A stretch of DNA of 63,153 nt, filler included, from Stramenopiles sp. TOSAG23-6 (lineage: Eukaryota), in assembly GCA_900128565.1 (NCBI GenBank). It is 48 parts of 48 records of this genome, joined end to end, with 100 filler letters (N's around TTAATTAATTAA, not from the genome) between each part and the next. Parts side by side here need not be neighbours in the genome. Positions count along the whole stretch, not along the records: positions 23,901 to 25,122 come from LT639453.1; 47 more parts are not named here. One strand, 5' to 3'. The notes beneath the pieces are model-generated. The model had not been told where the DNA came from. It worked only from the letters and a program-made list of their open reading frames with translations, and did not search any database. A program made the translations under genes and the position numbers. Shown piece after piece: positions 12,027 through 60,418 of this stretch; within the stretch, counting starts at the first letter, position 1; each line of letters begins with the position of its first letter.

Positions 12027-12690
12027 GGACGTTGACTCGAGAAATGTTAACAATCAAAAAAATTACAAAAAACGTCAGTGAAGTGAAATTCACTCCTGCT
12101 GTTATCGAACCATCATTTGGAGTCGGGCGAATTATTCAAGCTATCTTCGAACACAGTTACTATCAACGCGAGGAAGACAAGTCACGAGGTGTCATGAAAT
12201 TTCTCCCTGTTGTTGCCCCTGTCAAATGTGCATTATTTCCTTTATCCGGAGGTGACTCAGGTCCTTTTTCTGAAAGAGTTCAGCAAGTCCGTTCTGAGTT
12301 ATCAATGATGAATGTATCATGCCGAGTTGACGTACGTTTTCGTTTTTTTTTTCGTGTTTTTTTTTCGTAGTAAATTTTGTACCTAACAAAAAGATTTTAC
12401 TAAAAAAATATTTTTTCATAGTACATGCTTCCGCTGCATCAATTGGTAAACGATACGCTCGAAGCGATGAAATTGGTATTCCATTTGGTGTCACTGTCGA
12501 TTTCGAAACAATCAAAGAAGAATCAGAATTGTTTAATACTGTCACTTTAAGAGAAAGAGATTCAACTCATCAAATGCGTATATCAATTGACGAACTCCCA
12601 GAAATAATTGCAAGATTGTCTTCAGGACGTTTGGTTTGGTCTGAGGCATATGCTAAATATCCTAAAGTTGCCGTAAGCGAAGGTAAATAA
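12027..12690 (+). CDS. GARS1: Glycyl-tRNA synthetase (eukaryotic type), last two exons (12027-12331, 12427-12690)
   Basis: VIEPSFGVGRI; anticodon domain RVD|ASAASIGKRYARSDEIGIPFGVTVDF; VTLRERDS. Confidence 0.95.
12332..12426 (+). other. GT...AT intron, 95 nt
   Basis: GAC|GTACGTTTT...CATAGTACAT|GCT; removal restores the VDxSxxSIGxRYAR motif with no added residues. Confidence 0.88.
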
Positions 12691-15854: not shown

Positions 15855-16015
15855 NNNNNNNNNNNNNNNNNNNNNNNNNNNNNNNNNNNNNNNNNNNNTT
15901 AATTAATTAANNNNNNNNNNNNNNNNNNNNNNNNNNNNNNNNNNNNNNNNNNNNTAAAGGTCTAACTTTGGCTACTACTTGTAGAAACAATTATTACTAT
16001 TATTTTTTTGGAGAA

Positions 16016-17137
16016 ATGGCTCACTTACTCCCTGGTGTGTCTTGTCAGGTGACTGATGATGTTCACAGTCTTGAAGATATTTATCAGCGGTTCGATAATT
16101 TTGTTCCAAAAGAAACTATACCTGTTCTAGAGTCTTGTATTCTTCGTTTAATTGAGCTGAATCCTCAGAGAGAACGTGAATTTACAAAAGCCATGTTAAA
16201 AGTCCGTCGAGAGTTTAAACCACTCAATCCTAAAAAGTCACATTTACTCTACGTATATAGATTGATGGAAACGGAAGGCCGTTTACCAGAATCTGTGTTT
16301 ACAAATGATGGAGCTGGCTCAATATTGAGTGAGTTGCTTGTAAAGAAAAAAGGTAAAAGTGGTTCAGGCGTTTTGGTCATTACTGTGTTAACAAGTCCTT
16401 ATCCTTCAACAAGAGGTGGAAAGAAACAGAAATTTAGTTGTCAATGGAATTGTCATTACTGTCCAGCTGAACCAGGACAACCACGCAGTTATTTACATGA
16501 TGAACCTGCGGTATTACGCGCTAATCGTGATCAGTTTTGTCCCATCTTACAGTTTCATGACCGAGCAGCAACTTTAGCTATCAACGGCCACCCTGTCGAT
16601 AAAGTCGAATTATTAGTGTTAGGAGGTACCTGGGCATCCTATCCACATTCATATCAAGAAGAATTTTGTCGTGATTTATTTTATGCCGCAAACACGTTTT
16701 GGGATAGACAACATACACACCGTGATGCATTATCTTTAGAACAAGAACAACGCATCAACGAATCTGCACGCACAAAAATCATTGGTTTAACACTCGAGAC
16801 TCGACCTGATTGTATTAACGCCGATGAATTATTACGTTTTCGTCGGTATGGTTGTACTCGAATCCAAATTGGTGTACAACATACGCATGATGACGTGTCA
16901 AAATTAGTCAATCGAGGTCATGGTGTCAGAGAATCAATTGATGGTTTACGTTTATTACTGAATTCATGTTTTAAAGTAGATATGCATCTTATGCCAGATT
17001 TACCTGGTAGTAATGCTCAGAAAGATAAGGAAATGTTGGGAAGAGTTCTTTATTCAGAAGATTTAAGAGCTGATCAGTTAAAGTTATATCCACACAGTGT
17101 TGTTCCTTGGACATTGACTAAACAATGGCTAGATAAT
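16016..17137 (+). CDS. ELP3: Elongator subunit 3-like radical-SAM/acetyltransferase, first exon
   Basis: SGVLVITVLTSPYP, CQWNCHYCP, PRSY, LGGTW, LTLETRPD, HLMPDLP; ends at a family donor (17138). Confidence 0.93.
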
Positions 17138-18882: not shown

Positions 18883-19831
18883 TTATTGTGTTGTATAAAA
18901 ACATTTGTCTTGTGGTACCTGTGGTAACCATAACCCTAATGCAAAAGTATGAAATCGTTTTTTGGTATAACCAGCACTACGTTTGCGTTTCTTAGAAGTT
19001 CTTTGATTTGATGATGTCAAGTATTCTTTAAAATCATCTAGATAAAACACACTAACATCACCAGATTGCCATTTTCTAAATGTTTCATATCTTTGATTCA
19101 AACTTCTCTTCCAAGAATAAATTTCTACTTTCCATTTTGCTAATATTGCACTTTGTACGACTTCAGGAAATGTCACTTTTCCATTATTATCATTACCATC
19201 ACCAGTAACAAGAACTAAAGTCTGTTTTGTTTGACCATGATTTCGTTGAATTCTTGCTTGTATAGCATTCTGTAGAGCTGCATCGACTCCTTGCTCACCA
19301 CCAATAATAGCTACATTTTTTCGTGTTATTGTTTTAATTTTATTTGTGTTTTCAAAGCGAATATCATATAGTGCATTTGGTCCAGGGAATTTTGTCGTCG
19401 TATCATGCACATGACATACAGAACCACATTTTCTAAATTGTCCATAACCACCTTCTGATGAAGAGACTGATTTCAAATAACGCACTCGATCTCCTATGTT
19501 TAATTTTTGACCATTATCACATATAGTGTGAAAAATATTTTTTTTTTTTGTAAAAAAAAATCGTTAGGTACAAAATTTACTACGAAAAAATATTTCGGTA
19601 AAAAAAATGATGAAAAACGTACTAATTCGGCGTTCTAATTCTACTGCATAACCAGCTCTTTTCCAAAATGACCAATATGGTGTGTTAAGAGCACGCGCCG
19701 GTTCGATTTCACTTGATCCACACACTACACGAGCTCCTTTAATACGATCTAATTTTCTATTTTTTTCAACAATGTCAATAAGACAATTAAAATCCATATT
19801 TTTGCTTGTTCCACATTGAATATTACTAATA
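18883..19831 (-). CDS. NYN (PIN-like) domain protein, 2 exons (intron 19521-19622)
   Basis: EQGVDAAL, LVLVTGDGN and WKVEIYSW match NYN/LabA motifs. Confidence 0.75.
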
Positions 19832-23322: not shown

Positions 23323-23900
23323 ATTAAATAATACTTCTGTGCAGCACGCGAAATTAAAAAATTAATCGCGAATAATATTTATTTTGTATTTTACATCTCT
23401 TTTTGCTCTCTTTTTCAAGATGAAAAACAAAAANNNNNNNNNNNNNNNNNNNNNNNNNNNNNNNNNNNNNNNNNNNNNNNNNNNNNNNNNNNNNNNNNNN
23501 NNNNNNNNNNNNNNNNNNNNNNNNNNNNNNNNNNNNNNNNNNNNNNNNATCTTTTTTTTTCTTCATTGTCATACTTTGAGATCACGCATTTACTTTGTTT
23601 TTTTCATTAAAAATGTATTTGTAATTGTTGGAAAAAAATGAAATCGCAGCAACTTGAAGCTGAATTAGAAGGGATTCAAAAAATAGTCTCAGATTTAAAC
23701 GAACAGGGAAACAATGATTCATTAGATGAAAGTTTAAATGCTTGCCTTGAGCAAATTATCTCCGGAAATATTGAACGAGTGTTAGAAGACACAGGAACAG
23801 NNNNNNNNNNNNNNNNNNNNNNNNNNNNNNNNNNNNNNNNNNNNTTAATTAATTAANNNNNNNNNNNNNNNNNNNNNNNNNNNNNNNNNNNNNNNNNNNN

Positions 23901-24989
23901 CTGAAAAAATCTGTACGTTTTTTTTTTAAACCCTAACCCTAACTAAAAATACTAAAAATACTAAAAATACTAAAAATGTATATTTGTATGAACAGTGTAA
24001 AAAAATTAAATATTCAACATTTTTTTTTTTTTTTGAAATATTTTTTTTTCGTATACATCTTCATGGTTTTTCGATGGGTTGTATGATGTCACAGAGAATG
24101 GCAATGGAACATTCAAATATTATTGCTGGGTTTTCGTGTCATGGGGGAAGTTTAAACTGCATCCCATCTGATATTGCAGCAGGGAAAACCACTTTTAAGA
24201 TTGATTTAATGCCAGCTTTAGTGACAATTGGAAGTAATGATTCAAATTGGATAACTGGAGCAAAGGCAGGTGTATGTTTTTTTTTTTTCAAAAAAAAAAT
24301 TTCAAAATTTTTTTTCGTACGAAATTTTGTACCTAACAATTTTTTTTTTTTTGTAAAAAATATTTCTGTACAATATATATTCAAGCATGGAAAACATGGA
24401 ATTCGTGTACAACAAGTTCATCAACCTCACTAACTTTGACAGGGACAGAAAACACTTCAGCTACAAAGACAACGTATTCTTCATGTGCAGCTTACACACC
24501 TGCACTAAAAGTATGTTTTTCATCATGAATTTCTAATATTTTTTGTTCTTTTTGTCATTATGAATTTCAAAAAAAAAAAAAAAAAAAATTTATACAAAAT
24601 TTTGTATCTAACAAAAACAAATGTAAGAAAAAAAATTCAAAATATTTTTGATACTACATGTGGAACTGATTGAAATTGCAAACGCTGGTCATACAACAGA
24701 TGATCGAATGGCTACATTAAGTTGGAATTTTTTAAAAGTTTACGTATTTTTTTACAGTTACACTCTTTTTTATTTTTTTTATTTTTATGAATTTGTAATT
24801 TTGTACTGAAAAAAAAAAAAAGAACCCTAACCCTAATTGTACAGTTTTAAATATTTTTTAATCGTACAGAGTCGAACAGGAGCTTTAACAAATCTACCTG
24901 CAGCTTCAAAAATGACAAATGTATCATCTATGGCTGTGGTATCGACGCATTTGTTTGTATATTGCATATTTTTCATTGTTTTTTATTAA
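23901..24989 (+). CDS. Alpha/beta-hydrolase esterase (PHB-depolymerase/LpqC-like), 5 exons, hydrophobic C-terminal tail
   Basis: EKIY|LHGFSMG nucleophile elbow, W...N.C, IANAGH, WNFL; introns 23913-24056, 24272-24378, 24511-24659, 24744-24869. Confidence 0.8.
23913..24056 (+). other. GT...AC intron, 144 nt
   Basis: ATC T|GTACG...TTCGTATAC|AT CTT CAT gives KIYLHGFSMG; the AT two bases downstream breaks the frame. Confidence 0.7.
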
Positions 24990-25352
24990 TTTTTTAAATA
25001 CAATTTGAAATAAAAAAAATAAAAACATTAAAAAAAAATTGAAATTTTATTTATTTATTTTTTTTTTGTTTTTTTATTTTTTTGTTTAGGTACAAATTTT
25101 ACTATGAAAAAAAAAATTGTTTNNNNNNNNNNNNNNNNNNNNNNNNNNNNNNNNNNNNNNNNNNNNTTAATTAATTAANNNNNNNNNNNNNNNNNNNNNN
25201 NNNNNNNNNNNNNNNNNNNNNNTTTTTCGTACGAAATTTTGTACCTAACAAAATATTTTTTTTTTTTTTTTGGAAAAATTTTTCTTAGGTTTAGGTAAAA
25301 AATTTTTTTACCAAAAAAAAAAAAAAAAAAAAAATATTTTTTCACAATATAT

Positions 25353-26296
25353 GTTTGGATAGATGAAAAGCAATACCTGATTCCATTGATGAGTCTCCTT
25401 GGTTGTGGACGGAATAAGCAAACCAGTAGAAATCTACATTACCAAAATGAAAATTCAAATCAAACTAATCAGGGAAATAATTACATTACTGTAACATCTG
25501 TACGTTTTTTTTTTTTTTTTTTCGTACGAAATTTTGTACCTAACATTTTTTTGAATTTTTTTCTAAAAATATTTTTTTTTTCGTACGAAATTTTGTACCT
25601 AACATTTTTTTTGAATTTTTTTCTAAAAATATTTTTACAAAATACATGATGGCTCGATTATCGCAAAAGCTACAAAACAATATCTGAAAGGAGAGAGACT
25701 TAATATTGGATGTTATTGGCCCGCAAATGATCTCTTTTTACACACAGGATTTGTGGAACCAATGATGATGAAGTATGATATAATGACTAGTCAAACAGAA
25801 AATATTCAATTACATTCAGAAGTGCAAAGACAAATGATGTACGTTTTATTTTTTTTTCAAATTTATATTTTTTTTCGTACGAAATTTCGTACCTAACAAA
25901 AAAAAAAAAAAAAATTTGAAATATTTTTTTACAAAACATGAATGATTGTGTTAATGTTGAAATAAAATTATCAAATATTGAAAACATTGGAGGAAAAAAA
26001 TATAAGAAAAAAAAACGCCAATTGAAGTCAGTAGGTATTGACTATGTACGTTTTATTTTTTTTATTTTTTAAAAATTGAATTTTTTTTTCGTACGAAATT
26101 TCGTACCTAACAAAAATTAAATTTTTTTTTGAAATATTTTTCCATAATCCATGTACAAGATATATTCTGTCTCTCATCTGCAAGTCGCCCAGGTGGCGTC
26201 GCGGGTCATTCAACACAAGAGCTTTGGTCATTTCTTCGAATATTATATGATCTAAAGGACGAAGATGTCTTTGCGCCTCGGAGTACTCTTGCTCAT
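25353..26296 (+). CDS. SET-domain lysine methyltransferase (Rubisco-LSMT/SETD3-like), 4 exons
   Basis: LIPLM, AKATKQYLKGERLNIG...DLFLHTGFV, NDCVNVEI, ELWSFLRI after removing three GT-AT introns (25500-25647, 25839-25939, 26046-26152). Confidence 0.6.
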
Positions 26297-27096
26297 GTAT
26301 GTTTAATTTATTTTTTTTTATTTTTTTTTTTTTTACCGGAAAAAAAAAAAAAAAAAAAAAAAAAATGAATTTTTTTTTTTTTGTTTTTTTAAAAATTTTT
26401 TTCCCAAAAAAATTTTTTTTTTTGTAAATTTTTAAAATTTTTTNNNNNNNNNNNNNNNNNNNNNNNNNNNNNNNNNNNNNNNNNNNNTTAATTAATTAAN
26501 NNNNNNNNNNNNNNNNNNNNNNNNNNNNNNNNNNNNNNNNNNNGTGTAAACCACATCCAGGTGACAAAGATGACGAAGAATTTGGTTCTATAGAAAACGT
26601 TGCAGGAGTGTGCATCTTTCCTGACCATATATATGTGGACGACTCTACCATTTTAGATAAATATATTTCTTAATTGATGATTCAGAATTTTCTAAAATGC
26701 CCAATCAAATTTAGAAAGACACACACTTTGTTAAAAAGTAAAAATTCTAAGTTAGCGTAGTTAGCGTTAGAGAGAGAGAGTCAGCTCAGCAAGCCACTTT
26801 GCAAAATTTTTTGGCGGAGACATCAACATCAACTTTTTCCACTTTTTTCGTTTCGAGTCAAAACAAAAAATTCTTGCAGAATCTGAAAAAAAAATCTTTT
26901 CTTCATTTTTGAAGTCTTAACTCTTGAAATTACGAATATTAATCAATATTAATTACTTCTGTTTCTAACACTCTCACTTATAATACTCTGGTATTATCAC
27001 TACTACTACTACTACTACTACTACTACATTAGAATCCTATTATCTTCAGTGTTAATATTAGGTCTTGGTACAAAGACGTTGTAAGAGAACACAACA

Positions 27097-27763
27097 ATGC
27101 AGATTACTGTTCGCACACTTTCAGGCCGGTCTATCGTAGTAGATGGTTTATCAAACTCCGCAACTGTATTAAATCTAAAGCAATATATACAGGAACACAA
27201 TGGAATAGACATTTCGCGCCAAAAACTTATTTTCGCCGGACGAGCTATGGAAGATACAGAAACATTGGTAGGAAATCAAATACAGCATCAAACATCCGTT
27301 ATGCTTGTCAATACTCCCGCACCTCAAGAAGCGAAGGTTACACATGTAGCTGGAAGAGGTGCTGGTAGTATAGGAATGACTATATATGTGCGATTACTTA
27401 CAGGTACAATTATCACTACAAATGGTATTTTCCCTACAGATACAATATTAACATTGAAACAAAAAATTGCAACAAATGAAAACATACCAGTTTCGGAGCA
27501 AAAACTCATTCATTCAGGTAGAGCTCTCGGAAATATAGAAACAATGGAACAAATAGGCGTTACAAGTGGAGCTTCACTGATGTTAGTTCAACAGCAAGCT
27601 TTGTCAAACCCCAATGCTGGTCAGCCACCACCACCTCCTGGGCCTCCTCCTTCTAGCTCCATTCCAAACAATAATATTAGTCAAATAGGCAATGCTGCAG
27701 TTGCCATGCCTTCTCGTCGTGATAATTCTGCAGGAATCAGATCGGTGCCATTAAATGTCCGAA
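27097..27763 (+). CDS. Protein with two tandem ubiquitin-like domains and a Pro-rich region, partial
   Basis: MQITVRTLSG...QKLIFAGR and MTIYVRLLTG...QKLIHSGR. Confidence 0.85.
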
Positions 27764-27866
27764 NNNNNNNNNNNNNNNNNNNNNNNNNNNNNNNNNNNNN
27801 NNNNNNNTTAATTAATTAANNNNNNNNNNNNNNNNNNNNNNNNNNNNNNNNNNNNNNNNNNNNTTT

Positions 27867-27910
<44 letters not shown>

Positions 27911-27918
27911 CAATACAG

Positions 27919-29013
27919 GAAGCATTTACAACACGAATATTAGCTGAATTTGATTTTTTTCTAGACTCTTACGCACACGAAATCGGAGTTTTATTAATTG
28001 AACCTCAATTTGGTTCTATAATAGCTGCCATGCCTTGGGATCCAAAATTACTTTATGAGTATATATGTTTTATTTTTTTTTTCAAATTCCAATTTTTTTT
28101 TTTATAAAAATTTTGTACCTAACTAACAATTTTAGATTTTTTTTTTTTGAAATATTTTTCCAAAATATATATTTACAGAGCACAAGAACGAGGAATTTTC
28201 GTGTGTGCTGATGAAGTGATGTGTGGATTAGGACGTCATGGAAAATTAGACAATTTGTTTTTGAGTGGTTGTACATTTTCATTATGACTATATGAATGTA
28301 AGGTTTTTTTTTTATACAAAATTTTGTACCTAAGAAATTTTAATTTTTTTTTTAAAATCTTTTTTCAAAGTACATGTCTTGATATACCACCAGTCGATGC
28401 TGTAACATTTGGAAAATCAATAGGTAATTTTTTTTTTTTTTAATTTTTTTTTTTAATTTTTTTTTTTTGGTTTTCATACGAAATTTTCATAGAAAACAAT
28501 TTTTTATATTTGGAATATATTTTTATATTGTAGGTGGTGGTGTATTTCCAATATCAGGAGCAATTCTAAGACAAGGTGCCTCAGAACTTGGCTCACATGG
28601 ACAATCTGTTTTGCAATCTCATACATGAATGTTTTACTTTTTTTCAATTTATAATTTATTTTTTTTGAAAATTTTGTACCTAAGAAATTTTTGAATTTTT
28701 TTTTTTAAATATTTTCCAAAAATACATATTGTGGCAGTTCTGAATTGGCTATTTTAGCAGCAACATCAACTCTTACAATGATTAAACAATGGCAACCTCA
28801 TATCCAAAATATATCAAAAATTCTTGAAAATATTTTTAATGATATTTCAAATGAAACAAATGATACAATTCTCATTCATGGTCAAGGTTTGATGTGGGGT
28901 GGAATTTTTCAACATTCTGATAAAGAGTTAAGAAATGAAGCAAAGATGATTTTACAAAAAAAATGTGAAGAACAAGGTGTTTTGCCTTATTTTGTACCAG
29001 TTGGAGGATTCAT
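27919..29013 (+). CDS. Class-III PLP-dependent aminotransferase, 5 exons (27919-28062, 28171-28270, 28376-28423, 28534-28626, 28728-29013)
   Basis: LLIEPQ, ADEVMCGLGRHG, DAVTFGKSIGGG.FP.SG, SHTYCG and GQGLMWG all fall in one frame after splicing. Confidence 0.9.
28063..28170 (+). other. AT...AT intron, 108 nt
   Basis: TAT|ATATGTTTT...AAAATATAT|ATT; family core present; joins LLYEY to IYRAQERG. Confidence 0.7.
28627..28727 (+). other. GA...AT intron, 101 nt
   Basis: ACA T|GAATGTTTT...AAAATACAT|AT TGT restores HTY; a +1 shift gives HTC and a +2 shift gives a stop. Confidence 0.8.
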
Positions 29014-29182
29014 GTATGTTTTATTTATTTATTTTTTTTTTCAATTTCGAATTTATTTTTTTCGTACGAAATTTTGTACCTANNNNNNNNNNNNNNNNNN
29101 NNNNNNNNNNNNNNNNNNNNNNNNNNTTAATTAATTAANNNNNNNNNNNNNNNNNNNNNNNNNNNNNNNNNNNNNNNNNNNN

Positions 29183-29970
29183 GCTGCTGTCGGAGCTGCA
29201 GTTGGTGATGGTGTTGTTGATGGTGTTGGTGATGTAGTTGGCGATGCAGTTGGCGATGCAGTTGGTGTTGCTGTTGGAGCTGCTGTCGGAGCTGCAGTTG
29301 GAGCTGCTGTTGGTGATGCAGTTGGTGATGGTGTTGTTGATGGTGTTGGTGATGCTGTTGGAGCTGCTGTCGGAGCTGCAGTCGGAGCTGCTGTTGGGGT
29401 GATGGTGTTGTTGATGCTGTCGGAGCTGCAGTCGGAGCTGCAGTTGGAGCTGCAGTTGGTGTTGCTGTCGGAGCTGCTGTTGGAGCTGCTGTTGGAGCTG
29501 CTGTTGGAGCTGCTGTTGGAGCTTCTGGTGTTCGTTTGTTCGGAACTTTTATATAACCTTCAATCTGACTGGTGAGATTTCTTAGAGCATAATCGAGCAT
29601 TTGCGTAAAAGCATCGTGTGTCATCGTTGGTTGTGTGTCTTCTGTGGTAATTTCTGCTGTAAATGTATGCCATCCGTCCTCACATTTGATATAGGAATAA
29701 TCCGTCACAGTTGAGTCCGTTGAACTCGTCACAGTTGAGTCCGTTGAACTTTGCGTTGCAGTTAATGCACTAATGATAGCTTTTATCCATTTGATTTCTA
29801 CTTTAGATTCTGGATCGCATTCTGCTGCTTCAAGACTTCGTCCACGCCGAGTGACTGATCTCTTCATTTTAAAGTCTTGATATTCTATCATTGGAGCTGC
29901 TGTTGGAGCTGCTGTAGCTGCAGTTGTAGCTTCAATCGTAGCTGGTGTCGGAGCTGGTGTCGGTTTATTC
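29183..29970 (-). CDS. Mucin-like Pro/Thr/Ala repeat protein, fragment
   Basis: (PTAA)n 12-bp repeats around a small Cys-containing domain; frame slip near 29400. Confidence 0.65.
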
Positions 29971-30401
29971 AATAATCTCTACAATATGTCAATCTATTTG
30001 AGATAAATAAACATTTTTATCATGCACAAGCAAATACTTTTTACATTTTAATAAAATCAAAAATACAGACAATAATCTGTACAATACGTCAATAGTATTT
30101 GAAATAAATAAAAAAATTATAATTTAAAAGTAAACATCATTCATCTTTTGAATAAAAACAAAAATACGGTGCTCAATAATCTGTACAATATGTCAATAGT
30201 ATTTGAAATAAATAAACAATTTTATCATCTAAAAGCAAACATCATTCATCCTTTGAATAAAAACAAAAATACGCCCAATAATCTCTACAATATGTCAGTA
30301 GTATTTGAAATAAATAAACATCTTCACCATGTAAAAGCAAACATCATTCATCTTTTGAATAAAAACAAAAATACGCCCAATAATCTGTACAATATGTCAA
30401 T
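29969..30401. repeat. 102-bp AT-rich tandem satellite, about 4 units
   Basis: Recurring AATAATCTGTACAATATGTCAATAGTATTTGAAATAAATAAAC...; same unit as 34450-35663. Confidence 0.92.
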
Positions 30402-30649
30402 NNNNNNNNNNNNNNNNNNNNNNNNNNNNNNNNNNNNNNNNNNNNTTAATTAATTAANNNNNNNNNNNNNNNNNNNNNNNNNNNNNNNNNNNNNNNNNNN
30501 NGAATACAAATAGTAATAGCAAGCAACGAAAAACGACAGGACTTGTTTTTCCCTTTTTCGATCACTCAACCGAATATCATCAAACTTCCCACAATCCTAA
30601 CAATGCGACGGGTAATAGCAAATATAATGAATCGTATAATCCATCTTCA

Positions 30650-31650
30650 ATGAGTCAGGGTAACTTTCATCGTATCATTGCTGAGAAAGAAAAGGAGCTA
30701 CACGATATTAATGAATACAGAATCAATGTTTGTTTTATTTTTTTTCAACTTCGATTTTGTTTTCGTACGAAATTTTGTACCTAACGATTTTTTTTTCAAA
30801 TATTTTNNNNNNNNNNNNNNNNNNNNNNNNNNNNNNNTCAATATAACTTATCCCTAATTCATGATAGAGATTCCGATTTGGAACGTTATGAATTAGCATT
30901 TGATAATTTCCAAAAAGCTTTAGGTGACAAAGATTTAGAAATATCAGAATTTAGGGAAAATATCTCATCTACAAAACAAAGTTTAGTAGCTCTTCAGGTA
31001 AAAAATAAAGAAATGGATGAATATTACAAGAATTCAATGAAAGTACTCACTAAAGAGCTTGAAGATACGCGTTTTTCTGCCCAGCAGCACAGCAGGAGAC
31101 TTCACGATGATTACGTTTGTTTTCATTATGAATTTCACCTAAAAAAATTTTTTCGTACTAAATTTTGTACCTAACGATACAATTAAATGAGAAAGAAAAA
31201 ATGCTCGAAGACCAATCTCGAAAATTAGCTCGTAATTTTGATGATCAAGTTCTATTAAAAGAAGACAAACATTCAGCTCAATTAAATAAATTACAACAAA
31301 AATATGATAAAATATTTGAAGAGAATAGGCAGCTTCAAAATAAGCTTGAGAGTATGTTGGATGTGGCAAAAAAAAGAGATACCCTTTTGACTTCTATAAA
31401 ATCTGAGAAAGATGAGTCTATTCAATGTATACAAGTTCTAGAGCGTGATATAAAACATATTCGAAAAACTAAAGAAGATCATTTAAATAATGCTCGTAAA
31501 GAGATTGTTGAGCTGGAAGAAAAAAATAAAAATATGATAGAAAAACACCACAAAGAATTGATGACGCTTAAATTGGAATTATCAAGTTTTGAGCAGTCAA
31601 ATAATATCCATCAACAAGAAAAAACTTTACTGATTCAAAGAATGGAAAAT
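30650..31650 (+). CDS. CCDC57: Coiled-coil protein, CCDC57-like, N-terminal exons
   Basis: IIAEKEKEL and QYNLSLIHDRDSDLERYE resemble CCDC57 YNLQVLEERDLELERYD. Confidence 0.65.
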
Positions 31651-31936
31651 GTATGTTTTATGTTTTTTCAAATTCGAATTTTTTTTTCGTACGAAATTTT
31701 GTACCTAACGAATTTTTTNNNNNNNNNNNNNNNNNNNNNNNNNNNNNNNNNNNNNNNNNNNNTTAATTAATTAANNNNNNNNNNNNNNNNNNNNNNNNNN
31801 NNNNNNNNNNNNNNNNNNAAAAAAAAAAGTTCAAAAAAAAAAACGAAGAAAAGAGGCGCATTCGTTCCTTGCTATAAATTTTCTATATCGGATTCTGATT
31901 GCTCCCACGTTTGTTTCTACTTACTCAATACCAACA

Positions 31937-32620
31937 ATGAGATTCCATATGTGTTCTTACGTGCTTCTATTGGTTATAATTTCGCTTCCAAGAAGATCTG
32001 CAGTCTCTATTGTTAAGATTCAAGCTGATTTGGATACAGGAAACGGACAATGGTTACCAGCCACTACATTTTTTGCTCCTGGAGACATCAGATGAATCTT
32101 TCGATAATACAATACTGCAAGAAACTTCAGAAGCTGAAACGTTACATGAAACTCCAAGAGCCAGGCCAAGAACCTCAAATGCTGCACAAATTGAGGCACA
32201 AATCCAAGCAAATGACTTAGGAAAAAAAGGTTTTGCAGAGTCACAAGTTCCAGAAGCCGGTATTATTGACCCAACACATTATAACCAAGGAACATTCAGA
32301 GAAGAACAACAGTGGATGAAAAATGATAGTCGTATCAGACAAATGAATCTATCAGATTTGGAAGACCTATGCCTCAGCAGCAATTTCGATTTTTCAGCCC
32401 ACAACAACAACAAATAAACTCTCAACAGCAACAGCAGCAAATGATGCTACAGAATCAAATGATGATGTTACAACAACAACGTATGATGATGCAGCAACAA
32501 AACGAAAATGCACAACAACAACCAATTATGAATTATCCTGTTATGCAACAACAACAACAACAGCGAATACAACAACAGCCACAATCAACTATGATGGGAT
32601 TTTATGGTAGAAATTTGTAA
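31937..32620 (+). CDS. Possible secreted protein with a Gln/Met-rich tail and two apparent frameshifts
   Basis: Signal-like start, three overlapping open frames, poly-Q end. Confidence 0.35.
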
Positions 32621-33134
32621 AACAATATAAAAAAAAAATGTAACAAAAAATTAAGCTCACTAGAGTGGACCAAANNNNNNNNNNNNNNNNNNNNNNNNNN
32701 NNNNNNNNNNNNNNNNNNNNNNNNNNNNNNNNNNNNNNNNCAAATGTTAAATCTTATTTTTAAAAACAAATAAGCTCATTCCTAGGCCGAGTAGCAAATG
32801 TTAAATCTTATTTTTAAAAACAAATAGGCTCATTCCTAGGCCGAGTAGCAAATGCTTTACACTCAAATTTGTGTTTTTTTTTCCAATGTTTTTTTTGGCA
32901 CTTTTCCGAACAATAACGAACAGACATGCATCTTGAACACTCACTCAATTTAACTTTTTTTCCCTTACTTTTAAACGATTTTGTTACTCCACATTGAGCA
33001 AATTTTCTACAGTGAGCACAGTTTTGTATAATAGNNNNNNNNNNNNNNNNNNNNNNNNNNNNNNNNNNNNNNNNNNNNTTAATTAATTAANNNNNNNNNN
33101 NNNNNNNNNNNNNNNNNNNNNNNNNNNNNNNNNN

Positions 33135-33189
<55 letters not shown>

Positions 33190-33242
33190 CCGAAAAAACC
33201 AAAAAAAAAAAAAAAGACCCGATAGTTTTCATAAACTCCAAA

Positions 33243-34291
33243 ATGGAAAAAAAATATGTTTTGGTCTTTGTCATATCAGTGCAAAAAATGTACCCTTTTT
33301 ACTCTTTTGTAGTAATTTAGTGAGTGCTTTAGCAGCTGGTATGACTGTTAAATTTTTTCCAGTTTTTTTTAAAATTGAAGTCGGACTATCGCCAGTTTGT
33401 TTTCAATTTTGAATTTATTTATTTTTGAATTTTTTTTTTTCGTACGAAATTTTGTACCTAACATTTTTTTTTAAATAATTTTTTTTCACTAGTACAGGTT
33501 TGTGTCATGGCTGTATATGTCATAACGCCTATTTGTATGGCTATTTCAATATATGTGTCAAAAAGTATAGCAATTAACTACGGATTTGGACGTGTAGAGA
33601 CAGTTCAAGTGCAACGGTTTTTGGGTATGTATGTTTTTCAAAAAAAATTTCAAAATTTAAATTTTCAAAATTTTTTTTTAAAATTTTTTCTATATTTTTT
33701 CAAAAAAAAAAAATTTAAATTTTTTTTTTTTTTTAATTTATTTTTTTTTTTTTTTTTTTTTTTGTAGTATCTCTTCACTTCCCCTCCCTATTCTTCCTAT
33801 CCTCATAACAAAGAAAATGAAATTTGGAAAATATATTTTTTTAATACATTTTATTTCTAATTATTTTGGCTATTTTTAAGTCCTTATGGAAGCATAAAAT
33901 TATCTGTGTTTTTGTATACATTTTTCGTACCATTTTTACATCATCTGGATGGCCATTAATCAATTCAGTAATGAATGATTATACAAGAAAAGGAACACGT
34001 GCCAAGTATGTTTTATATATATTTGTATTTTCATACGAAATTTCAAAACGAATCAAAATAATATTGAATTTCAAAACGAAACAAAAAAAAATTTAAAAAA
34101 AATTTAAAAAAAAAAATGTGTGATTTTTTTTTTTTTTTAATTTTTTTTTTTCATACCTAATGATATTTTGTACTAAGCATTTCGAAACTGTACATATTGT
34201 ACCAAAATACATATGGAATTCGTTACAATCTATCGCTGGATTTGGCTGGTCAGGTTCAGCAGCTCTAGGAGGGATTTTAATACACAAATAT
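33243..34291 (+). CDS. Major facilitator superfamily transporter, internal exons
   Basis: LAAGMTVKFFPVFF, GRV, YIFRT...PL..SVMNDY...TRAK|WNSLQSI..FGWSGSAALGG; introns 33395-33497 (AG), 33629-33849 (AT), 34006-34212 (AT). Confidence 0.8.
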
Positions 34292-34449
34292 GTCTGTTTT
34301 ATTTTTTTTCAATTTCGAATTTATTTTTTTATAAAAATTTTGTACCTAANNNNNNNNNNNNNNNNNNNNNNNNNNNNNNNNNNNNNNNNNNNNTTAATTA
34401 ATTAANNNNNNNNNNNNNNNNNNNNNNNNNNNNNNNNNNNNNNNNNNNN

Positions 34450-35663
34450 TTTTATCATTCTAAAGCAAACATCATTCATTGTTTGAATAAAAACAAAAAT
34501 ACCATCAATAATCTGTACAATATGTCAACAGTATTTGAAATAAATAAACATTTTAATCATGTAAAAGCAAACATCATTCAACTTTTCAATAAAATTAAAA
34601 ATACCGACAATAATTTGTACAATATGTCAAAAGCATTTGAAATAAATAAACATTTTTATCATGTAAAAGCAAAAATCATTCATTGTTTGAATAAAAACAA
34701 AAATACCATCAATAATCTATACAATATGTCAATAGAATTTAAAATAAAAAAACCTTTTTATCATGTAAAAGCAAACATCATTCATCTTTTGAATAAAAAC
34801 AAAAATACGCAGAAGAATCTATGCAATATGTCAATAGCATTTAAAATAAATATACATTTTTATCATGTAAAACCAAATATCATTCATTTGTTGAATAAAA
34901 ACAAAAATACTTTAAATAATCTGTACAATATTTCAAGAGCATTTGAAATAAATACACATTTTTATCATTCTAAAGCAAACATCATTCGTCTTTTGAATAA
35001 AAACAAAAATACAAACAATAATCTGTTCAATATGTCAATAGTATTTGAAATAAATAAATATATTATCATGTAAAAGTAACTATCATTCATTGTTTGAATA
35101 AAAACAAAAATACTTTAAATAATCTGTACAATATTTCAATAGTATTTGAAATAAATAAACATTTTTATCATGTAAAACTAAACATCATTCATCTTTTGAA
35201 TAAAAACAAAAATATTGTCAATAATCTGTACAATATGACAATAGTATTAACAATAAATAAACATTTTTATCATGTAAAAGCAAACATCATTCGTCTTTTG
35301 AATAAAAACAAAAATACATTCAATAATCTGTACAATATGGCAAGAGTATTTGAAATATATAAACATTTTTATCATTCTAAAGCAAACATCATTCATCTTT
35401 TGAATAAAAAAAAAATACTGCCAATAATCTGTACAATATGTCAAGAGCATTTGAAATAAATACACATTTTTATCATTCTAACGCAAAGATGATTCATATT
35501 TTGAATAAAAACAAAAATACTTCCAATAATCTGTACAATATGTCAATACAAATTGAAATAAATATATATTTTATCATGTAAAAGTAACTATCATTCATTG
35601 TTTGAATCAAAACAAAAATACTTCCAATAATCTGTACAATATGTCAATAGTATTTGAAATAAA
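34450..35663. repeat. 102-bp AT-rich tandem satellite, about 12 diverged units, filling the whole contig
   Basis: AATAAAAACAAAAATAC-like anchor at 34486, 34588, 34690 and onward. Confidence 0.95.
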
Positions 35664-35763
35664 NNNNNNNNNNNNNNNNNNNNNNNNNNNNNNNNNNNNN
35701 NNNNNNNTTAATTAATTAANNNNNNNNNNNNNNNNNNNNNNNNNNNNNNNNNNNNNNNNNNNN

Positions 35764-36912
35764 TGAAAACATGCATGGATTATGAAAAAATATTTCAAAA
35801 AAAAAAAACTCAAATTTGTTAGGTACAAAATTTCATACAAAAAAAACAATAAACTCGAAATTGAAAAAAAATAAAACATACAGGGTCGGATTCCCAACCT
35901 CGTGGTGCACTGCTACCCATTTCACTTCTATTGAGTTGTTGATCATAAAGATGTAAAATCATTGTACCTATATTGTGAAAAAGGTTTTTTGTTGGTACAA
36001 AATTTCATAAGAAAAAAATAAATTCGAAATTGAAAAAAAAATTGAAAAAAAAAAACATACCTACTGCAAAGACATCCATTGTGAAAAACTCACGTTTGGT
36101 CAACAATGAACCTTTCGAACTTCGTAACTCTCCATACTTTTCTCCTACACGTGGAAAGTATTATGAAAAAATATTTTAAATTCAATATTTTTGTTAGGTA
36201 CGAAATTTCGTACGGAAAAACCAACTACATTCGAAATTGAAAAACAATACAACATACGTCCTATATGCCACGTCATTTTGTAGATTCTTGACAAGCGTTT
36301 TATTAGTTTCATCCTTCGNNNNNNNNNNNNNNNNNNNCTTTTTCTTACTTCCATAATCAACTAAAGCAACTTTAATTTGACCATACTTTGTAATTTTTGT
36401 CATAATATTTTCAGCCTTTATATCACTGTTTATCCAACCTAAATCATTTAAATCCTTAATTGCCATCATTAATTGTCTAAATTTTTCCTTAAACACAACA
36501 TGAGGAGTATTTTGATTGCTTTTAAATTCTTTCGTATCTCCAAATATATCATCATACTTTTCAAATATTAAGGCATGACACCCCAATCTATTAATTGCAC
36601 CATAAAATTCAGGCATATATTGTGAAAAAATATTTTTTGGTTTTTATTAGGTACGAAATTTACTATAAAAANNNNNNNNNNNNNNNNNNNNNNNNNNNNN
36701 NNNNNNNNNNNNNNNNNNNNNNNNNNNAAAAAAAATAAAACATACATGTAATCCATGTGATAATTGTAATGTTTTGCATCACTTGAGATTTGAGTTATTA
36801 TTGTCTTTTCAATTTCAAAATGCTTTTTGTTTTTGAAAAGCTTGATTGCACGTAATTCACCATCTGCCAGATCTGCATTCTCTGCTGCTGCTAGTTCACG
36901 TACAATATACAC
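35764..36912 (-). CDS. Divergent Ser/Thr protein kinase, 5 exons
   Basis: RAIKLF, NSDIKAENIM, LVDYG, AYRT|P, MDVFAV|GTMILHL; introns 36615-36745, 36156-36257 (GT-TT), 35968-36060 (GT-AG), 35775-35881. Confidence 0.8.
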
Positions 36913-41068: not shown

Positions 41069-41514
41069 GTTTCGTACAAGCAAAGGAATGGGTGTGCGTA
41101 TGAATGGATGTTTGAGTGGTTTTGCACCTGCGATGAATGGTTTACTTGAAAGTTCAATTTTCACTCAGAATATTTGTTCGACAGTTGTTACTCATGTACT
41201 TGTACGTTTTATATGAATTTCTAATTTAATTTTTTTTTTTGGTTTCATACGAAATTTCGTACCTAACGATTTTTTTTTTCCGGTAAAAAATATTTTTTCA
41301 CAATACTTGTACGTTGTTCTTTTTACTTTCAAAAGTTATTTATTTTTATACCTAATACAAAGGTTTTGTACCTAACGTATTTCAAATTTGACATATTTTT
41401 TCACAATACTTGCCCCACGTCCTGGAGAAACAATCATTGATATGTGTGCAGCACCTGGAGGCAAATCAACTCATATTGGCGCACTTATGAAAAACGAAGG
41501 AATTCTTGTTTCAT
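41069..41514 (+). CDS. NSUN6: NSUN6-like tRNA m5C methyltransferase, exons 41069-41201 and 41412-41514
   Basis: GMGVRM...QN..S.VV.HVL|APRPGETIIDMCAAPGGKSTHI. Confidence 0.88.
41202..41411 (+). other. Two abutting GT...TT intron units (41202-41308, 41309-41411) with no exon between them
   Basis: CTT|GTACGTT...CAATACTT|GTACGTT...CAATACTT|GCC; each unit has its own GTACCTAAC and ATAT box. Confidence 0.85.
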
Positions 41515-41615: not shown

Positions 41616-42172
41616 ACAACTAGCTCAGAAAAGTCTATATAGTGCTGCGACTGCAAAAATGGACGATAATGGTATTGCTATAGCTTTTGTTTTACACATT
41701 ATCGCTGTAACTTCAATTAGTATGTACGTTTTCATTTCAATTTTTTTACCTACATTTTATTTTTTCATAGTAAATTTTGTACCTAACAAAAAACATGTAC
41801 TAAAACAAAATATTTTTCATCATATATGATTTTATGGAATGTGTTACCGAAAAGTATGAAAAAATACATTGAAATTTCAAATATAAACCAATCGGAGAAT
41901 ACAACAGTACAAAACACTTTGAAATATTACGTGTCTCTTGTGTTTAGTTTTTCAATGCAATCTATGGCAGATGACATGTACATTTTCATCATTGATTTCA
42001 ATTCGTTTTTTTTTTTATACGAAATTTTGTAGTTAACAAAAAAAACTCAAAAAAAATATTTTTTCACAAAATATGTTTTTAGTCATTGGATTTATAGTTA
42101 CACTTATTGGAATGACAAGTAGTTCAATAATTGAGAATGAACATTGCGTTTGGTATTTTTTACTTACTTCTT
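41616..42172 (+). CDS. PIGG: GPI ethanolamine-phosphate transferase (PIGG/GPI7-like), transmembrane exons
   Basis: MTSSSIIENEHCVWYF (compare ASSxVEEEHxxWYF); GT-AT introns 41724-41827 and 41978-42074. Confidence 0.65.
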
Positions 42173-59411: not shown

Positions 59412-60418
59412 TCACCTACATGCTTCGCCTAATAAAGGTACTGCTAAAATGGAACAACGAGCAATTCCAGTTAAAAAATTCCATGTCAAGCCTTTTACAC
59501 GAAATCTTAAAAAATCTGCTAATTCTTTATGTACAACATTTTCTATAAAAACGCCATTATTATGGGTAACTTTAATTCTGATGGAACTTTCCTGTAAAAC
59601 AAGTGGATCAATATTTCGTGCGCAACTAGGCGCTTCAATCATTGGTTTACCTATAGCAATATTTGCTGGAGTATTTATCTTTTTTGTGTGAAAATATTTA
59701 AAAAAAAAAAATGTTTTTTGTAAGGTATGAAATTTAAAATTTTTTTAAAAAATTAAAATTTTTTTTTTTTAAATTTAAAATTTAAAAAAAATTTTTTAAA
59801 TTTTTTTTAAATTTTTTTAAAATTTTTTTTTTTAAATTTTTTTAAAACAAAATAAGTAACGTACGTGTAAAACAATGGGTTGCATCAAATGGATTGGAAA
59901 TGAATTTGGTAAAAGATTGACTTTTCGTGCAGCAATAGTTTGATCAATAATTGGATCTGAATAATAGGATGAAGATTGACCAGTGACAGACCTGTTTTGG
60001 AAAAAATAGTACAAATTTTTTTTTAGATTAAAATATTTGTTAGGTACAAGTTTTACTATGAAAAAAAAATTTACGAAAAAAAAAAAAAAAAAGTAAAAAA
60101 AATCATGATACACTTTGGACACGTGGCATTGAAAAACACGAAAAACATACCCACCCAAAACACTTGTACTTCCACTTCGTATTAAAGCTCTACGTATTGC
60201 TTCAGCAGATTTCGTGATTGTTGGTGGTTTTGTATTTGAATTCAAATTAATATTTTTATATTGTTGATGATGTTTCATTCGAGCATGTATTTTGGAAAAA
60301 TATTTCAAATTTTTTTTGTTAGGTACAAAATTTCGTACGAAAAAAAAAATTCAATTTCAAAATTTAAAAAAAAAATAAATTGTACATGTGTGCCATCAAT
60401 GAATTTCATGTTGGGAAC
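59412..60418 (-). CDS. Hypothetical protein, 4 exons including a 33-nt exon (60386-60418)
   Basis: Continuous frame after removing 60285-60385 (AT), 59992-60150 (AG) and 59679-59864 (AG). Confidence 0.6.

What the first reader, a model, noticed from the sequence alone, without database searches (positions are those of the whole stretch)
23913..24056. A molecular ruler: the acceptor lies 15 nt after an AATAT box whatever its dinucleotide
Seen: in roughly 25 of about 31 acceptors I measured, the intron ends exactly 15 nt after AATAT (variants CATAT, TATAT, GATAT, AATCT). Four end at 14 nt, and two AG introns (33497, 48407) have no clear box. The rule holds for AT (12426, 28727, 34212), AG (9971, 24869, 28533, 59679), TT (36156, 41308, 41411) and here AC, where the frame needs AC although ACAT lies 2 nt further. 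The spacing is kept across slippage-prone poly-T, while the CTAAC-to-end distance varies (33-48 nt in those measured). Inference: the 3' site is chosen by distance from this box, which may be the true branch site or a protein-binding site replacing AG recognition.
Basis: partly seen in the sequence, partly recalled or inferred. Interest (0 to 1): 0.88.

Follow-up and report, generated by a model that had tools for sequence, protein, structure and literature searches.

The report
Repeated introns that end in AT
Most introns in these marine-protist contigs are copies of one roughly 100-base element that is spliced out at a non-standard ...AT end, and the "15-base ruler" is the front part of that element's conserved 21-base tail rather than a proven measuring device.

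Summary
Of 51 intron 3' ends that I catalogued, 38 have an exact AATAT 15 nt upstream, or 41 counting CATAT and AATCT. Three have it at 14 nt, one at 18-20 nt, and six have none.

The esterase junction ATCT|ATCTTCAT, a GT..AC intron at 23913-24056, is supported two ways. RNA contigs from two runs break exactly at 24057. The homologue consensus is ER[VI][YF]x[TS]-GFSMG.

Non-AG ends are real:
- RNA shows GT..AT at 24272-24378 and 24511-24659.
- Solved-structure alignments fix 12331|12427 (AT end) and 41201|41412 (TT end) to the codon.

The ruler reading is only partly supported. AATAT is not special. Nearly every position from -21 to -1 is conserved (AAATATTTTTYCAMAATAYAT), as the tail of one intron family that also shares a 5' block and a 25-nt core ending in CCTAAC. 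In the three 14-nt cases the cut follows the distal ...YAT if the donor is GT. In favour of position, AC, TT and AG ends keep the same place, and a perfect TTTTTTCATAG 5 nt upstream is skipped.

The organism is a MAST-3-like stramenopile. My literature searches found no description of this.

The parts
23913..24056 (+). Esterase intron 1, GT..AC. It has no family core, but carries a telomere-like CCCTAACCCTAAC and four TACTAAAAA repeats, and ends in the family 3' block.
   Evidence: RNA contigs begin matching at 24057 in X1 and X2. The homologue consensus requires Y from T|AT. The boundaries are unambiguous from the flanking bases.
24035..24056 (+). 3' terminal block of intron 1 (GAAATATTTTTTTTTTCGTATAC). 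The AATAT box is at 24037-24041.
24272..24378 (+). Esterase intron 2, a family member, GT..AT (or TG..TA). AATAT + 15.
   Evidence: X6 record 22 joins across it, with 7 letters hidden by the tool's repeat mask. X1 record 6 retains its 3' part.
24511..24659 (+). Esterase intron 3, GT..AT. AATAT at 24641-24645 leaves only 14 nt to the end.
   Evidence: Joint 24510->24660 in X1, X2 and X6, sides 83-84, both=2.
24744..24869 (+). Esterase intron 4, GT..AG. AATAT + 15.
   Evidence: Joint 24743->24870 in X1, X2 and X6, both=0.
12332..12426 (+). Glycyl-tRNA synthetase intron, GT..AT (or TA..TG). AATAT + 15. A TTTTTTCATAG 5 nt before the end is not used.
   Evidence: The last residue of the upstream exon aligns to 4qei_A residue 531, and residue 2 of the downstream exon to residue 533. 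The internal AG is listed.
41202..41308 (+). First of two tandem family introns in an NSUN6-like gene. It ends ACTT and is followed directly by GTACGT, so the exon between them has zero length.
41309..41411 (+). Second tandem intron. It ends ACTT, with CATAT + 15.
   Evidence: Exon A's last residue aligns to NSUN6 residue 230 and exon B's residue 2 to residue 232. Both introns are therefore removed exactly.
41724..41827 (+). Family intron with a 14-nt spacing (AATATTTTTCATCATATAT).
   Evidence: Only offsets of 0 modulo 3 keep the frame.
19521..19622 (-). Family intron with a 14-nt spacing (AATATTTTTCACACTATAT).
   Evidence: Only offsets of 0 modulo 3 keep the frame.
36156..36257 (-). Family intron ending ACTT. 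AATAT + 15.
   Evidence: The frame allows offset 0 and excludes -2.
59679..59864 (-). Diverged family intron ending AAAG. AATAT + 15.
   Evidence: Only offsets of 0 modulo 3 keep the frame.
28063..28727 (+). Four introns of a class-III aminotransferase gene (28063-28170, 28271-28375, 28424-28533, 28627-28727). Their ends are AT, AT, AG and AT, each 15 nt after AATAT or AATCT. Two have apparently non-GT starts (ATATGT, GAATGT).
   Evidence: The nominal junctions give a 229-aa open frame that aligns to P0121 at 7-229 / 14-235. Direct repeats leave the boundaries of 28170 and 28727 ambiguous.
33395..33497 (+). Family intron with a full core that ends ACAG and has no box at 15 nt (AATAA + 19). A TAG at -5 is skipped.

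Best explanation
These are spliceosomal introns of a single repeated (introner-like) family, in a MAST-3-like marine stramenopile. Each copy carries three conserved blocks separated by variable AT-rich spacers:
- a 5' site, GTAYGTTTT;
- a 25-nt core, TTTTCGTACGAAATTTTGTACCTAAC, whose CTAAC is the likely branch site;
- a 21-nt 3' terminal block, AAATATTTTTYCAMAATAYAT.

I infer that the 3' block as a whole is the 3' splice signal. Its T-run would act as the pyrimidine tract, and the cut falls after the terminal ...AYAY, usually ACAT. The cut does not fall after AG.

AATAT is simply the first five bases of this block. It therefore sits 15 nt from the cut wherever the block is intact. Point changes of the last bases (to AC, TT or AG) are tolerated without moving the cut. 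A one-base loss inside the block moves the box but not the cut.

Shown: the family, the block, the non-AG junctions and the skipped AG.
Inferred: which bases of the block the spliceosome reads, and that CTAAC is the branch site.
For: The family.
- The 8-mers TTCGTACG (57 copies) and GTACCTAA (59 copies) are 54- and 27-fold over-represented.
- One search lists the copies.
- The alignment of 25 copies shows three conserved blocks and spacers that cannot be aligned.
- 20 of 96 contig ends break inside the core.

The block. Information content is 1.0-1.9 bits at all of -21..-1 except -11 and -8. The last triplet is CAT in 32 and TAT in 9 of 51 ends.

Junctions.
- RNA joints or breaks for four introns of one gene, with AC, AT, AT and AG ends.
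- Codon-exact solved-structure alignments for 12426 (AT) and 41411 (TT).
- Homologue consensus for the esterase Y.
- Frames: 12 of 14 single-class introns and 17 of 18 two-class introns allow the homology-defined end.

The cut tracks the distal sequence in the 14-nt copies 24659, 41827 and 19521.

A canonical TTTTTTCATAG 5 nt upstream is skipped at 12426, and a TAG at -5 is skipped at 33497.
Against: - In the esterase intron both TATAC| (+15) and TACAT| (+17) fit the terminal pattern, yet the one at +15 is used. A purely sequence-defined end does not explain this choice.
- The TT ends (CTT) are not YAY, yet they are cut at the same place while a TAC 2 nt upstream is passed over.
- In the three 14-nt cases the next exon base is G, so a cut at 15 with a TA donor gives the same mRNA.
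- Three informative introns (6441, 41615, 1670) do not fit a GT donor plus the nominal end.
- My 3' ends were placed by homology to the block, which is partly circular.
- Only one contig could be checked with RNA.
Confidence: 0.6

Rival explanations
1. A true ruler. The second-step site is chosen by distance, about 15 nt (tolerance 14-15), from AATAT or from the start of the T-run. A bound factor would set the distance, and the terminal dinucleotide would matter little.
For: - AC, TT and AG ends all lie 15 nt after the box.
- The esterase intron uses TAC at +15 rather than CAT at +17.
- YAY triplets at +13 are frame-excluded in at least 13 introns, and a perfect YAG at +10 is skipped in 12426.
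- The CTAAC-to-end distance varies from 34 to 49 nt, so CTAAC is not the reference point.
Against: - With GT donors, three copies are cut at 14 nt.
- 6010 has 18/20 nt.
- 33497 (19 nt), 59992, 43357, 36913 and 10141 have no box at 15. One search shows none before the AG near 48407 either.
- AATAT is no more conserved than its neighbours.
- In intact copies distance and sequence are fully confounded.
- The esterase tail also aligns to the family without a gap (9 of 15 by my hand count). It may therefore be a point-mutated ...TATAT rather than an indel variant.
Confidence: 0.22
2. AATAT (or an A within the 3' block) is the real branch site. The 3' site would then be the first usable position at a minimal distance from it, as in the fused branch/3' motifs recalled for Trichomonas and Giardia. 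The upstream CTAAC would serve another role.
For: - The fixed short spacing to the cut and the strong conservation of the A's at -21..-19 and -17.
- The esterase intron 1 lacks the family core yet keeps the 3' block and is spliced.
Against: - CTAAC matches the widespread CTRAY branch consensus (recalled) and sits in the best-conserved block: G69-A76 are invariant in 25 copies.
- Intron 1 also contains CCCTAAC and four TACTAAA repeats.
- No lariat evidence exists either way.
Confidence: 0.08
3. The variable last two bases are a target-site duplication. The element proper would be GTAY...ATAC, with short inverted ends GTAT/ATAC. It would insert at AT, and splicing would have to remove the element plus one copy of the duplicated target. 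The cut would then be fixed relative to the element, whatever the target bases are.
For: - The exon before the intron ends in AT in 21 of 42 cases, against a background of 9%.
- Exon-end and intron-end suffixes match more than shuffled pairs do: 1.69 against 1.35, P=0.004, after dropping the tandem pair and one duplicate.
- None of the 9 non-AT introns follows an AT exon end.
- ACTT appears three times at the tandem introns, and TAG/TAG at 28533.
- Read together with the exon's AT, the ends form ATGTAT/ATACAT (register +2).
Against: - Ten AT-ending introns follow exons that do not end in AT. Two of these, 24378 and 24659, are RNA-verified.
- Among pairs where both end in AT, the match does not extend further (P=0.54).
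- 36156 (exon AC, intron TT) and the esterase intron (exon CT, intron AC) do not match.
- Insertion-site preference or a spliceosomal exon preference would give the same AT bias.
Confidence: 0.25
4. An artefact. The junctions would be mis-assemblies, homopolymer errors or wrong gene models in a fragmented single-cell assembly, and the real introns would end in AG.
For: The assembly is very fragmented and contains Ns. Three introns do not fit the frames.
Against: - RNA contigs from three runs in two studies at 99+% identity show the GT..AT joint, with sides of 78-84 nt.
- No AG exists between 23995 and 24056.
- Solved-structure alignments are contiguous to the residue.
Confidence: 0.02

Closest known systems
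Introner elements (Micromonas, Aureococcus and many aquatic eukaryotes; PMC9860276 passages, PMC11282704 passages)
   Same: One sequence family supplies introns in many unrelated genes. Intron density is uneven between genes. There are hints of short inverted ends and flanking direct repeats. The organism is aquatic.
   Different: As recalled, and as the Amoebophrya paper says of Aureococcus, those families use canonical GT-AG sites. Here 41 of 51 ends are AT. Here the spacers between the three blocks are not conserved. The copies may therefore be old, or only the blocks may be under selection.
Non-canonical introns of Fritillaria (PMC13326754, section 21 read; the Henriet 2019 paper itself not seen)
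   Same: 3' AT and 3' AC ends are common there: 44% AT in F. pellucida, and 34% AT plus 28% AC in F. borealis. A YAY triplet forms the last three intron bases and is often present just before the 5' site. A uridine-rich tract is retained, and a transposon origin has been proposed. Here the ends are CAT/TAT/TAC in 42 of 51, and the preceding exon ends in AT in 21 of 42.
   Different: Fritillaria 5' ends are mostly AG, not GT, and its introns are not one sequence family. It is a chordate. Its divergent U2AF paralogues have no known counterpart here, and I could not test for one.
Amoebophrya introner elements and diplonemid/euglenid non-conventional introns (PMC7789003 passages; PMC12621601 abstract)
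   Same: Non-canonical ends in repeated introns, complementarity between the 5' and 3' ends, and 3-5-nt direct repeats over the boundaries.
   Different: In those systems the splice sites vary with no fixed dinucleotide, and an extended hairpin is the main feature. Here GT is kept, the end is mostly AT, and the terminal pairing has no unique register (6.1 of 9 pairs at shifts 0 and +2). RNAalifold found no consensus structure.
U12-type (minor) introns
   Same: As recalled from Dietrich et al. and from the Physarum work cited in PMC11282704: the 3' site is chosen largely by distance from an upstream element, and several terminal dinucleotides are tolerated (AC, AG, AT).
   Different: The 5' site here is GTAYGTTTT, not RTATCCTT. 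The CTAAC lies 34-49 nt from the end, not 10-20 nt.
Fused branch/3' motif of Trichomonas and Giardia introns (recalled, not checked in a paper here)
   Same: A long conserved 3' motif fixes the spacing between an internal signal and the cut.
   Different: Those motifs contain the branch site itself and end in AG, and those genomes hold very few introns.

Membership tests
Introner-like (repeated, possibly mobile) intron family | Many introns in unrelated genes share one sequence | tested here: met
   There are 51 3' ends and 59 GTACCTAA cores in about 58 kb. The host genes include an esterase, GlyRS, NSUN6, an aminotransferase and others.
Introner-like (repeated, possibly mobile) intron family | Transposon hallmarks: terminal inverted repeats and target-site duplications | tested here: inconclusive
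   Short GTAT/ATAC ends. The exon-end AT bias and suffix matching give P=0.004, but there is no extension among AT/AT pairs.
Introner-like (repeated, possibly mobile) intron family | Recent gain: presence/absence between strains, or positions not shared with relatives | not testable with these tools
   No genome is held. The core motif and the core-plus-tail pattern each gave 0 hits in metagenome contigs.
Spliceosomal removal at RNA level | The spliced form is present in RNA and the unspliced form in DNA, with partial retention | tested here: met
   One search shows joints in polyA metatranscriptome contigs. X1 record 6 keeps the 3' part of intron 2 while introns 3 and 4 are removed.
Fritillaria-type non-canonical introns | A YAY triplet as the last three intron bases, and often before the 5' site | tested here: met
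   CAT 32, TAT 9 and TAC 1 of 51. Exon ends are CAT 9 and TAT 5 of 42, with AT in 21 of 42.
Fritillaria-type non-canonical introns | A non-GT (mostly AG) 5' end | tested here: not met
   G1 is invariant and T2 is at least 90% conserved in 25 copies. The RNA joints read GT.
U12-type introns | A 5' site RTATCCTT, and a TCCTTRAY branch site 10-20 nt from the end | tested here: not met
   The consensus is GTATGTTTT. CTAAC lies 34-49 nt from the end. The defining motifs are recalled.
Distance-defined 3' site ('ruler' from AATAT) | The cut keeps its distance from the box when the intervening length changes | tested here: inconclusive
   Three copies shortened by one base are cut at 14 nt with a GT donor, or at 15 nt with a TA donor. 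The esterase intron is cut at 15 nt and not at the ACAT at 17 nt.

The most novel reading that the evidence does not exclude
In this uncultured MAST-3-like stramenopile, almost every intron would descend from one mobile element that inserts at AT. The spliceosome would have shifted to reading the 3' splice site by its position inside a 21-nt element-borne block: about 15 nt after the start of the T-run, and two bases beyond the element's own end. It would not read AG. It would therefore ignore a perfect pyrimidine-tract-plus-YAG 5 nt upstream, and accept AT, AC, TT or AG at the cut. That would be an independent, GT-retaining counterpart of the Fritillaria and Amoebophrya cases. It would also be a natural system in which 3' site choice is positional.
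Probability: 0.3. Interest if true: 0.85.

Novelty: new variant of a known kind. Interest (0 to 1): 0.68.

Why it matters
AG at the 3' end of introns is close to universal. Only a few lineages are known to have left it on a genomic scale, namely Fritillaria, Amoebophrya, and the euglenids and diplonemids. In each, the shift coincides with invasion by transposon-like introns.

A heterotrophic marine stramenopile in which about 80% of the catalogued introns end in AT while keeping GT would be a further, independent case. It has a very simple, highly repeated signal set. It would make two questions directly testable on natural variants:
- how the second-step site is chosen, by sequence or by position;
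- whether the terminal bases derive from the insertion target.

There is also a practical point. Gene finders that assume GT-AG will break most multi-intron genes in such assemblies. The published MAST-3 single-cell assemblies report only 2,694-3,289 genes (PMC5778133, passages seen). The repeated core also fragments the assembly: 20 of 96 contig ends here lie inside it.

Tried and rejected
- Read laying on 23901-43536 was not accepted, because the 12-nt linker pieces are too short. Only one contig could be laid.
- Three tries to find a transcript-derived protein spanning the esterase exon 1-2 junction timed out.
- One scan did not complete because the machine was busy.

Searches that found nothing useful:
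- Rfam on the whole window gave 0 hits, so there is no snRNA to compare.
- RNAalifold on 25 copies gave no consensus structure.
- The terminal 5'/3' helix idea has no unique register: 6.1 of 9 pairs at shifts 0 and +2.
- The core 22-mer and a core-plus-tail pattern each gave 0 hits in metagenome contigs.
- The aminotransferase 'longer' search gave only homologues of 38-48% identity and no same-species transcript.

Unresolved or rejected readings:
- 'Exon C' (41617-41721) has no NSUN6 match. The 41515-41615 intron therefore stays unresolved: it is either GT..CA at 14 nt or has a non-GT donor.
- An AT-AC reading of the introns is possible only where the exon ends in AT. It is impossible for the RNA-verified 24272-24378 and 24511-24659.
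- U12-type is rejected on motif grounds.

Limits of the RNA and literature evidence:
- RNA runs X3 and X6 cover parts of the stretch only. Parts without cover say nothing.
- Supplements of papers were not seen. Those of PMC5778133 and PMC9860276 might mention these introns.
Full report
WHAT THE WINDOW IS. The 63,153-base window is not one locus. It is 48 contigs of 1,203-1,232 nt, sorted by falling length and chained by a 100-nt linker, N44-TTAATTAATTAA-N44. GC content is about 30%. No whole genome is held. An ELP3 reading frame (16013-17134) is 98% identical to a EukProt coding sequence whose source name points to a MAST-3 assembly. The next best hits are Incisomonas (61%) and oomycetes. The organism is therefore a MAST-3-like (Nanomonadea) marine stramenopile, and the assembly looks like a single-cell one. 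Six polyA or total-RNA seawater metatranscriptome runs from three studies hold 5-11% of the sampled words of 23901-33034.

THE OBSERVATION. The box and the spacing are real. AATAT lies at 24037-24041, and 15 nt later the intron ends at 24056 in ...CGTATAC. An ACAT would end at 24058. I listed 51 intron 3' ends on both strands. Duplicate contigs were counted once: 42326-43536 and 43637-44847 are identical at 1,210 of 1,211 positions.
- Exact AATAT stands 15 nt before the end in 38 of 51, or 41 of 51 counting CATAT and AATCT.
- It stands at 14 nt in 3 (24659, 41827, 19521) and at 18/20 nt in 1 (6010).
- There is none in 6 (33497, 59992, 43357, 36913, 10141, and 4568, which holds Ns).
- With 489 AATAT sites on both strands, chance predicts about 0.2 such cases by my arithmetic.
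- The terminal dinucleotides are AT 41, AG 5, TT 3, AC 1 and GT 1.

WHAT THE BOX BELONGS TO. The introns are copies of one sequence family. The 8-mers TTCGTACG (57 copies) and GTACCTAA (59 copies) are 54- and 27-fold over-represented. Listing every CCTAAC shows the same architecture again and again. An alignment of 25 full copies shows three conserved blocks separated by AT-rich spacers that do not align:
- GTAYGTTTT at the 5' end;
- a 25-nt core, TTTTCGTACGAAATTTTGTACCTAAC, which contains the palindromes TTTCGTACGAAA and GTACGAAATTT(C/T)GTAC;
- a 3' tail, AAATATTTTTYCAMAATAYAT.

Per-position information over the 51 tails is 1.0-1.9 bits at every position from -21 to -1 except -11 and -8. AATAT (-20..-16) is no better conserved than the T-run (-15..-12) or the A's at -9, -7, -4 and -2. 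The constant 15 nt therefore follows from one conserved block. Twenty of 96 contig ends break inside the core, which fits a high-copy repeat that fragments the assembly.

ARE THE NON-AG ENDS REAL? Only a single contig could be laid on RNA, because the linker pieces are too short. I chose the esterase contig (85% minimum likeness; the informative records are 99+% alike).
1. X1 record 5 matches 24057-24263 with record letters 263-469. X2 record 10 matches 24057-24146 and runs on for 198 letters. Both break exactly at 24057, so intron 1 ends at 24056. The upstream letters were not shown to me.
2. X6 record 22 joins 24263 to 24378 with 7 letters between. The tool masks 24264-24367 as a repeat. This fits intron 24272-24378, GT..AT (or TG..TA). 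X1 record 6 keeps the last 11 nt or more of this intron while the next two introns are removed, which is the picture of RNA splicing with partial retention.
3. A joint 24510->24660 (skips 149, GT..AT, both=2) is seen in X1, X2 and X6. AATAT is at 24641-24645, so the spacing is 14 nt.
4. A joint 24743->24870 (skips 126, GT..AG, both=0) is seen in the same three runs, and the spacing is 15 nt.

The esterase codon. Fifty homologues of exon 2 were found. Among their GxSxG rows, the consensus before the nucleophile is D-(P/A)-E-R-(V/I)-(Y/F)-x-(T/S)-GFSMGCMM. Y (31) or F (8) stands at -3. The window gives E-K-I-Y-L-H-GFSMG only if ...ATCT is joined to ATCTTCAT. The flanking bases allow no shift, so this intron is GT..AC.

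Two further junctions were fixed to the codon with solved structures.
- In glycyl-tRNA synthetase, the last residue of the upstream exon aligns to 4qei_A residue 531, and residue 2 of the downstream exon to residue 533. This gives 12331|12427: a GT..AT intron (or TA..TG) ending 15 nt after AATAT. A textbook TTTTTTCATAG lies 5 nt upstream of that end and is not used.
- In an NSUN6-like gene, exon A ends at residue 230 and exon B's second residue is 232. So 41202-41411 is removed exactly. This stretch is two different family introns in tandem with a zero-length exon between them. The upstream exon and both introns all end in (T)ACTT.

For a class-III aminotransferase, the nominal junctions of four introns give a 229-aa open frame that aligns over 7-229 to P0121. 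Direct repeats leave the exact boundaries of two of these introns open.

Frames. With the nominal donor and the homology-defined end:
- 12 of 14 introns that allow a single residue class allow only offset 0;
- 17 of 18 that allow two classes include 0;
- three (6441, 41615, 1670) do not fit;
- 10 of 42 are uninformative.

RULER OR CONSERVED TAIL? In intact copies, distance and sequence are confounded. Only variants can separate them.

For position:
- AC, TT and AG ends sit at the same place as AT.
- The esterase tail TATACAT offers YAY triplets ending at +13, +15 and +17, and +15 is used.
- A YAY at -2 is frame-excluded in at least 13 introns.
- The TAG at -5 is skipped in 12426 and 33497.

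Against AATAT as the origin:
- The three copies with one T fewer are cut, with a GT donor, after ...YAT at 14 nt.
- 6010, 33497 and 59992 break the spacing, and so does the AG intron near 48407, which shows no box at 15 nt.
- The whole tail is conserved, not just the box.

Two caveats cut both ways.
- In all three 14-nt cases the next exon base is G (G is the first exon base in 28 of 51). A TA..TG reading with the cut at 15 therefore gives the same mRNA.
- The esterase tail also aligns to the family without a gap (9 of 15, my hand count), as a point-mutated ...TATAT.

There is also a survivorship effect: we only see variants that still give the right mRNA. Taken together, the determinant most likely lies in the distal half of the block, with a preference for AYAY and some positional component.

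ORIGIN. The exon before the intron ends in AT in 21 of 42 cases, against a 9% background. Exon-end and intron-end suffixes match more than shuffled pairs do: P=5e-5 for all, and P=0.004 without the tandem pair and one duplicate. None of the 9 non-AT introns follows an AT exon end. Among AT/AT pairs the match does not extend further (P=0.54). Read together with the exon AT, the ends form ATGTAT...ATACAT. This fits an element GTAY...ATAC inserting at AT with a 2-nt duplication. It fits an insertion-site or exon preference equally well. I could not test gain or loss between strains.

COMPARISON WITH WHAT IS KNOWN.
- The nearest parallels are the Fritillaria introns (PMC13326754, section 21 read). 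They have frequent 3' AT and AC ends, a YAY as the last triplet and often before the 5' site, and a retained U-tract. Their 5' ends, however, are mostly AG.
- Also close are the Amoebophrya introner elements, with inverted and direct repeats (PMC7789003, passages), and the diplonemid non-canonical introns (PMC12621601, abstract).
- A review states that intron invasions often coincide with relaxed splice-site requirements (PMC11282704, passage).
- U12-type introns share distance-based 3' choice (recalled), but the motifs here do not fit.

Literature on MAST-3. The paper on MAST single-cell genomes holds 'intron' twice and neither 'splice' nor 'canonical' (PMC5778133). Full-text searches linking MAST-3, Incisomonas, stramenopiles, introners and GT-AT found no description of these introns. 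The introner survey holds no 'MAST' or 'stramenopile' in its main text. Supplements were not seen.

VERDICT.
- The esterase GT..AC junction is confirmed.
- The 'AATAT ruler' as stated is only partly supported. The spacing is explained by a conserved 21-nt tail of a single intron family. Whether the cut is read by sequence, by position or by both remains open.
- The underlying phenomenon is a GT-retaining, mostly AT-ending, single-family intron set in a marine stramenopile. As far as my searches reach, it is an undescribed variant of a known kind.

Noticed in passing
whole window; linkers e.g. 23801-23900: The window is a chain of 48 contigs of about 1.2 kb each, sorted by falling length and joined by N44-TTAATTAATTAA-N44. 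Neighbouring 'genes' are therefore not linked.
   Followed up: yes
4115, 4136, 4713, 4728, 4935, 55932 (+); 61423, 61366, 40414, 9577 (-), among 16 sites: The telomere-like CCCTAACCCTA occurs 16 times, against about 0.01 expected. Ten copies lie in stop-free frames, always read as P-N-P, and often as AAC CCT AAC CCT AAx = NPNP. Its origin is unexplained. It also stands inside two esterase introns (23931, 24825), where it supplies a CTAAC.
   Followed up: partly
4935-4985: An inverted pair of telomere-like repeats, CCCTAACCCTA ...19 nt... TAGGGTTAGGG, lies inside an open frame (translated ...DPNPRGEYSSDRVRV...). It looks like a tiny element with inverted ends.
   Followed up: no
41202-41411: Two different family introns lie head to tail with a zero-length exon between them. 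The upstream exon and both introns end in (T)ACTT. This may reflect repeated insertion at one target.
   Followed up: partly
4465, 28627 (GAATGT); 28063, about 5772 (ATATGT); 2042, 1787 on the - strand (GATGTT): Several family introns seem to start with GA or AT instead of GT. Direct repeats make the exact boundaries ambiguous.
   Followed up: partly
25500-25647: One intron carries the family core twice, as an internal duplication of about 59 nt.
   Followed up: no
31115-about 31185: This intron has the 5' block and the core but no 3' tail. Coding sequence resumes within about 10 nt of CCTAAC, so its 3' end must be chosen differently.
   Followed up: no
42326-43536 and 43637-44847: These two contigs are identical at 1,210 of 1,211 positions. 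They are either a duplicate in the assembly or two alleles.
   Followed up: yes
9690-9740 (+ strand): A partial family core (TTTCGTACTAAATTTTGTACCTAAC) lies antisense inside an open frame of the - strand gene, translated ...LGTKFSTK.... It may be an exonised fragment, or the gene model may be wrong.
   Followed up: no
41515-41723: The intron 41515-41615 fits the frame only as GT..CA (14 nt) or with a non-GT donor. The following 'exon' (41617-41721) has no NSUN6 similarity. It may be a lineage-specific insert or a pseudo-exon.
   Followed up: partly
24173: RNA contigs of X1 and X6 read C where the window has A. This is probably a strain difference.
   Followed up: no
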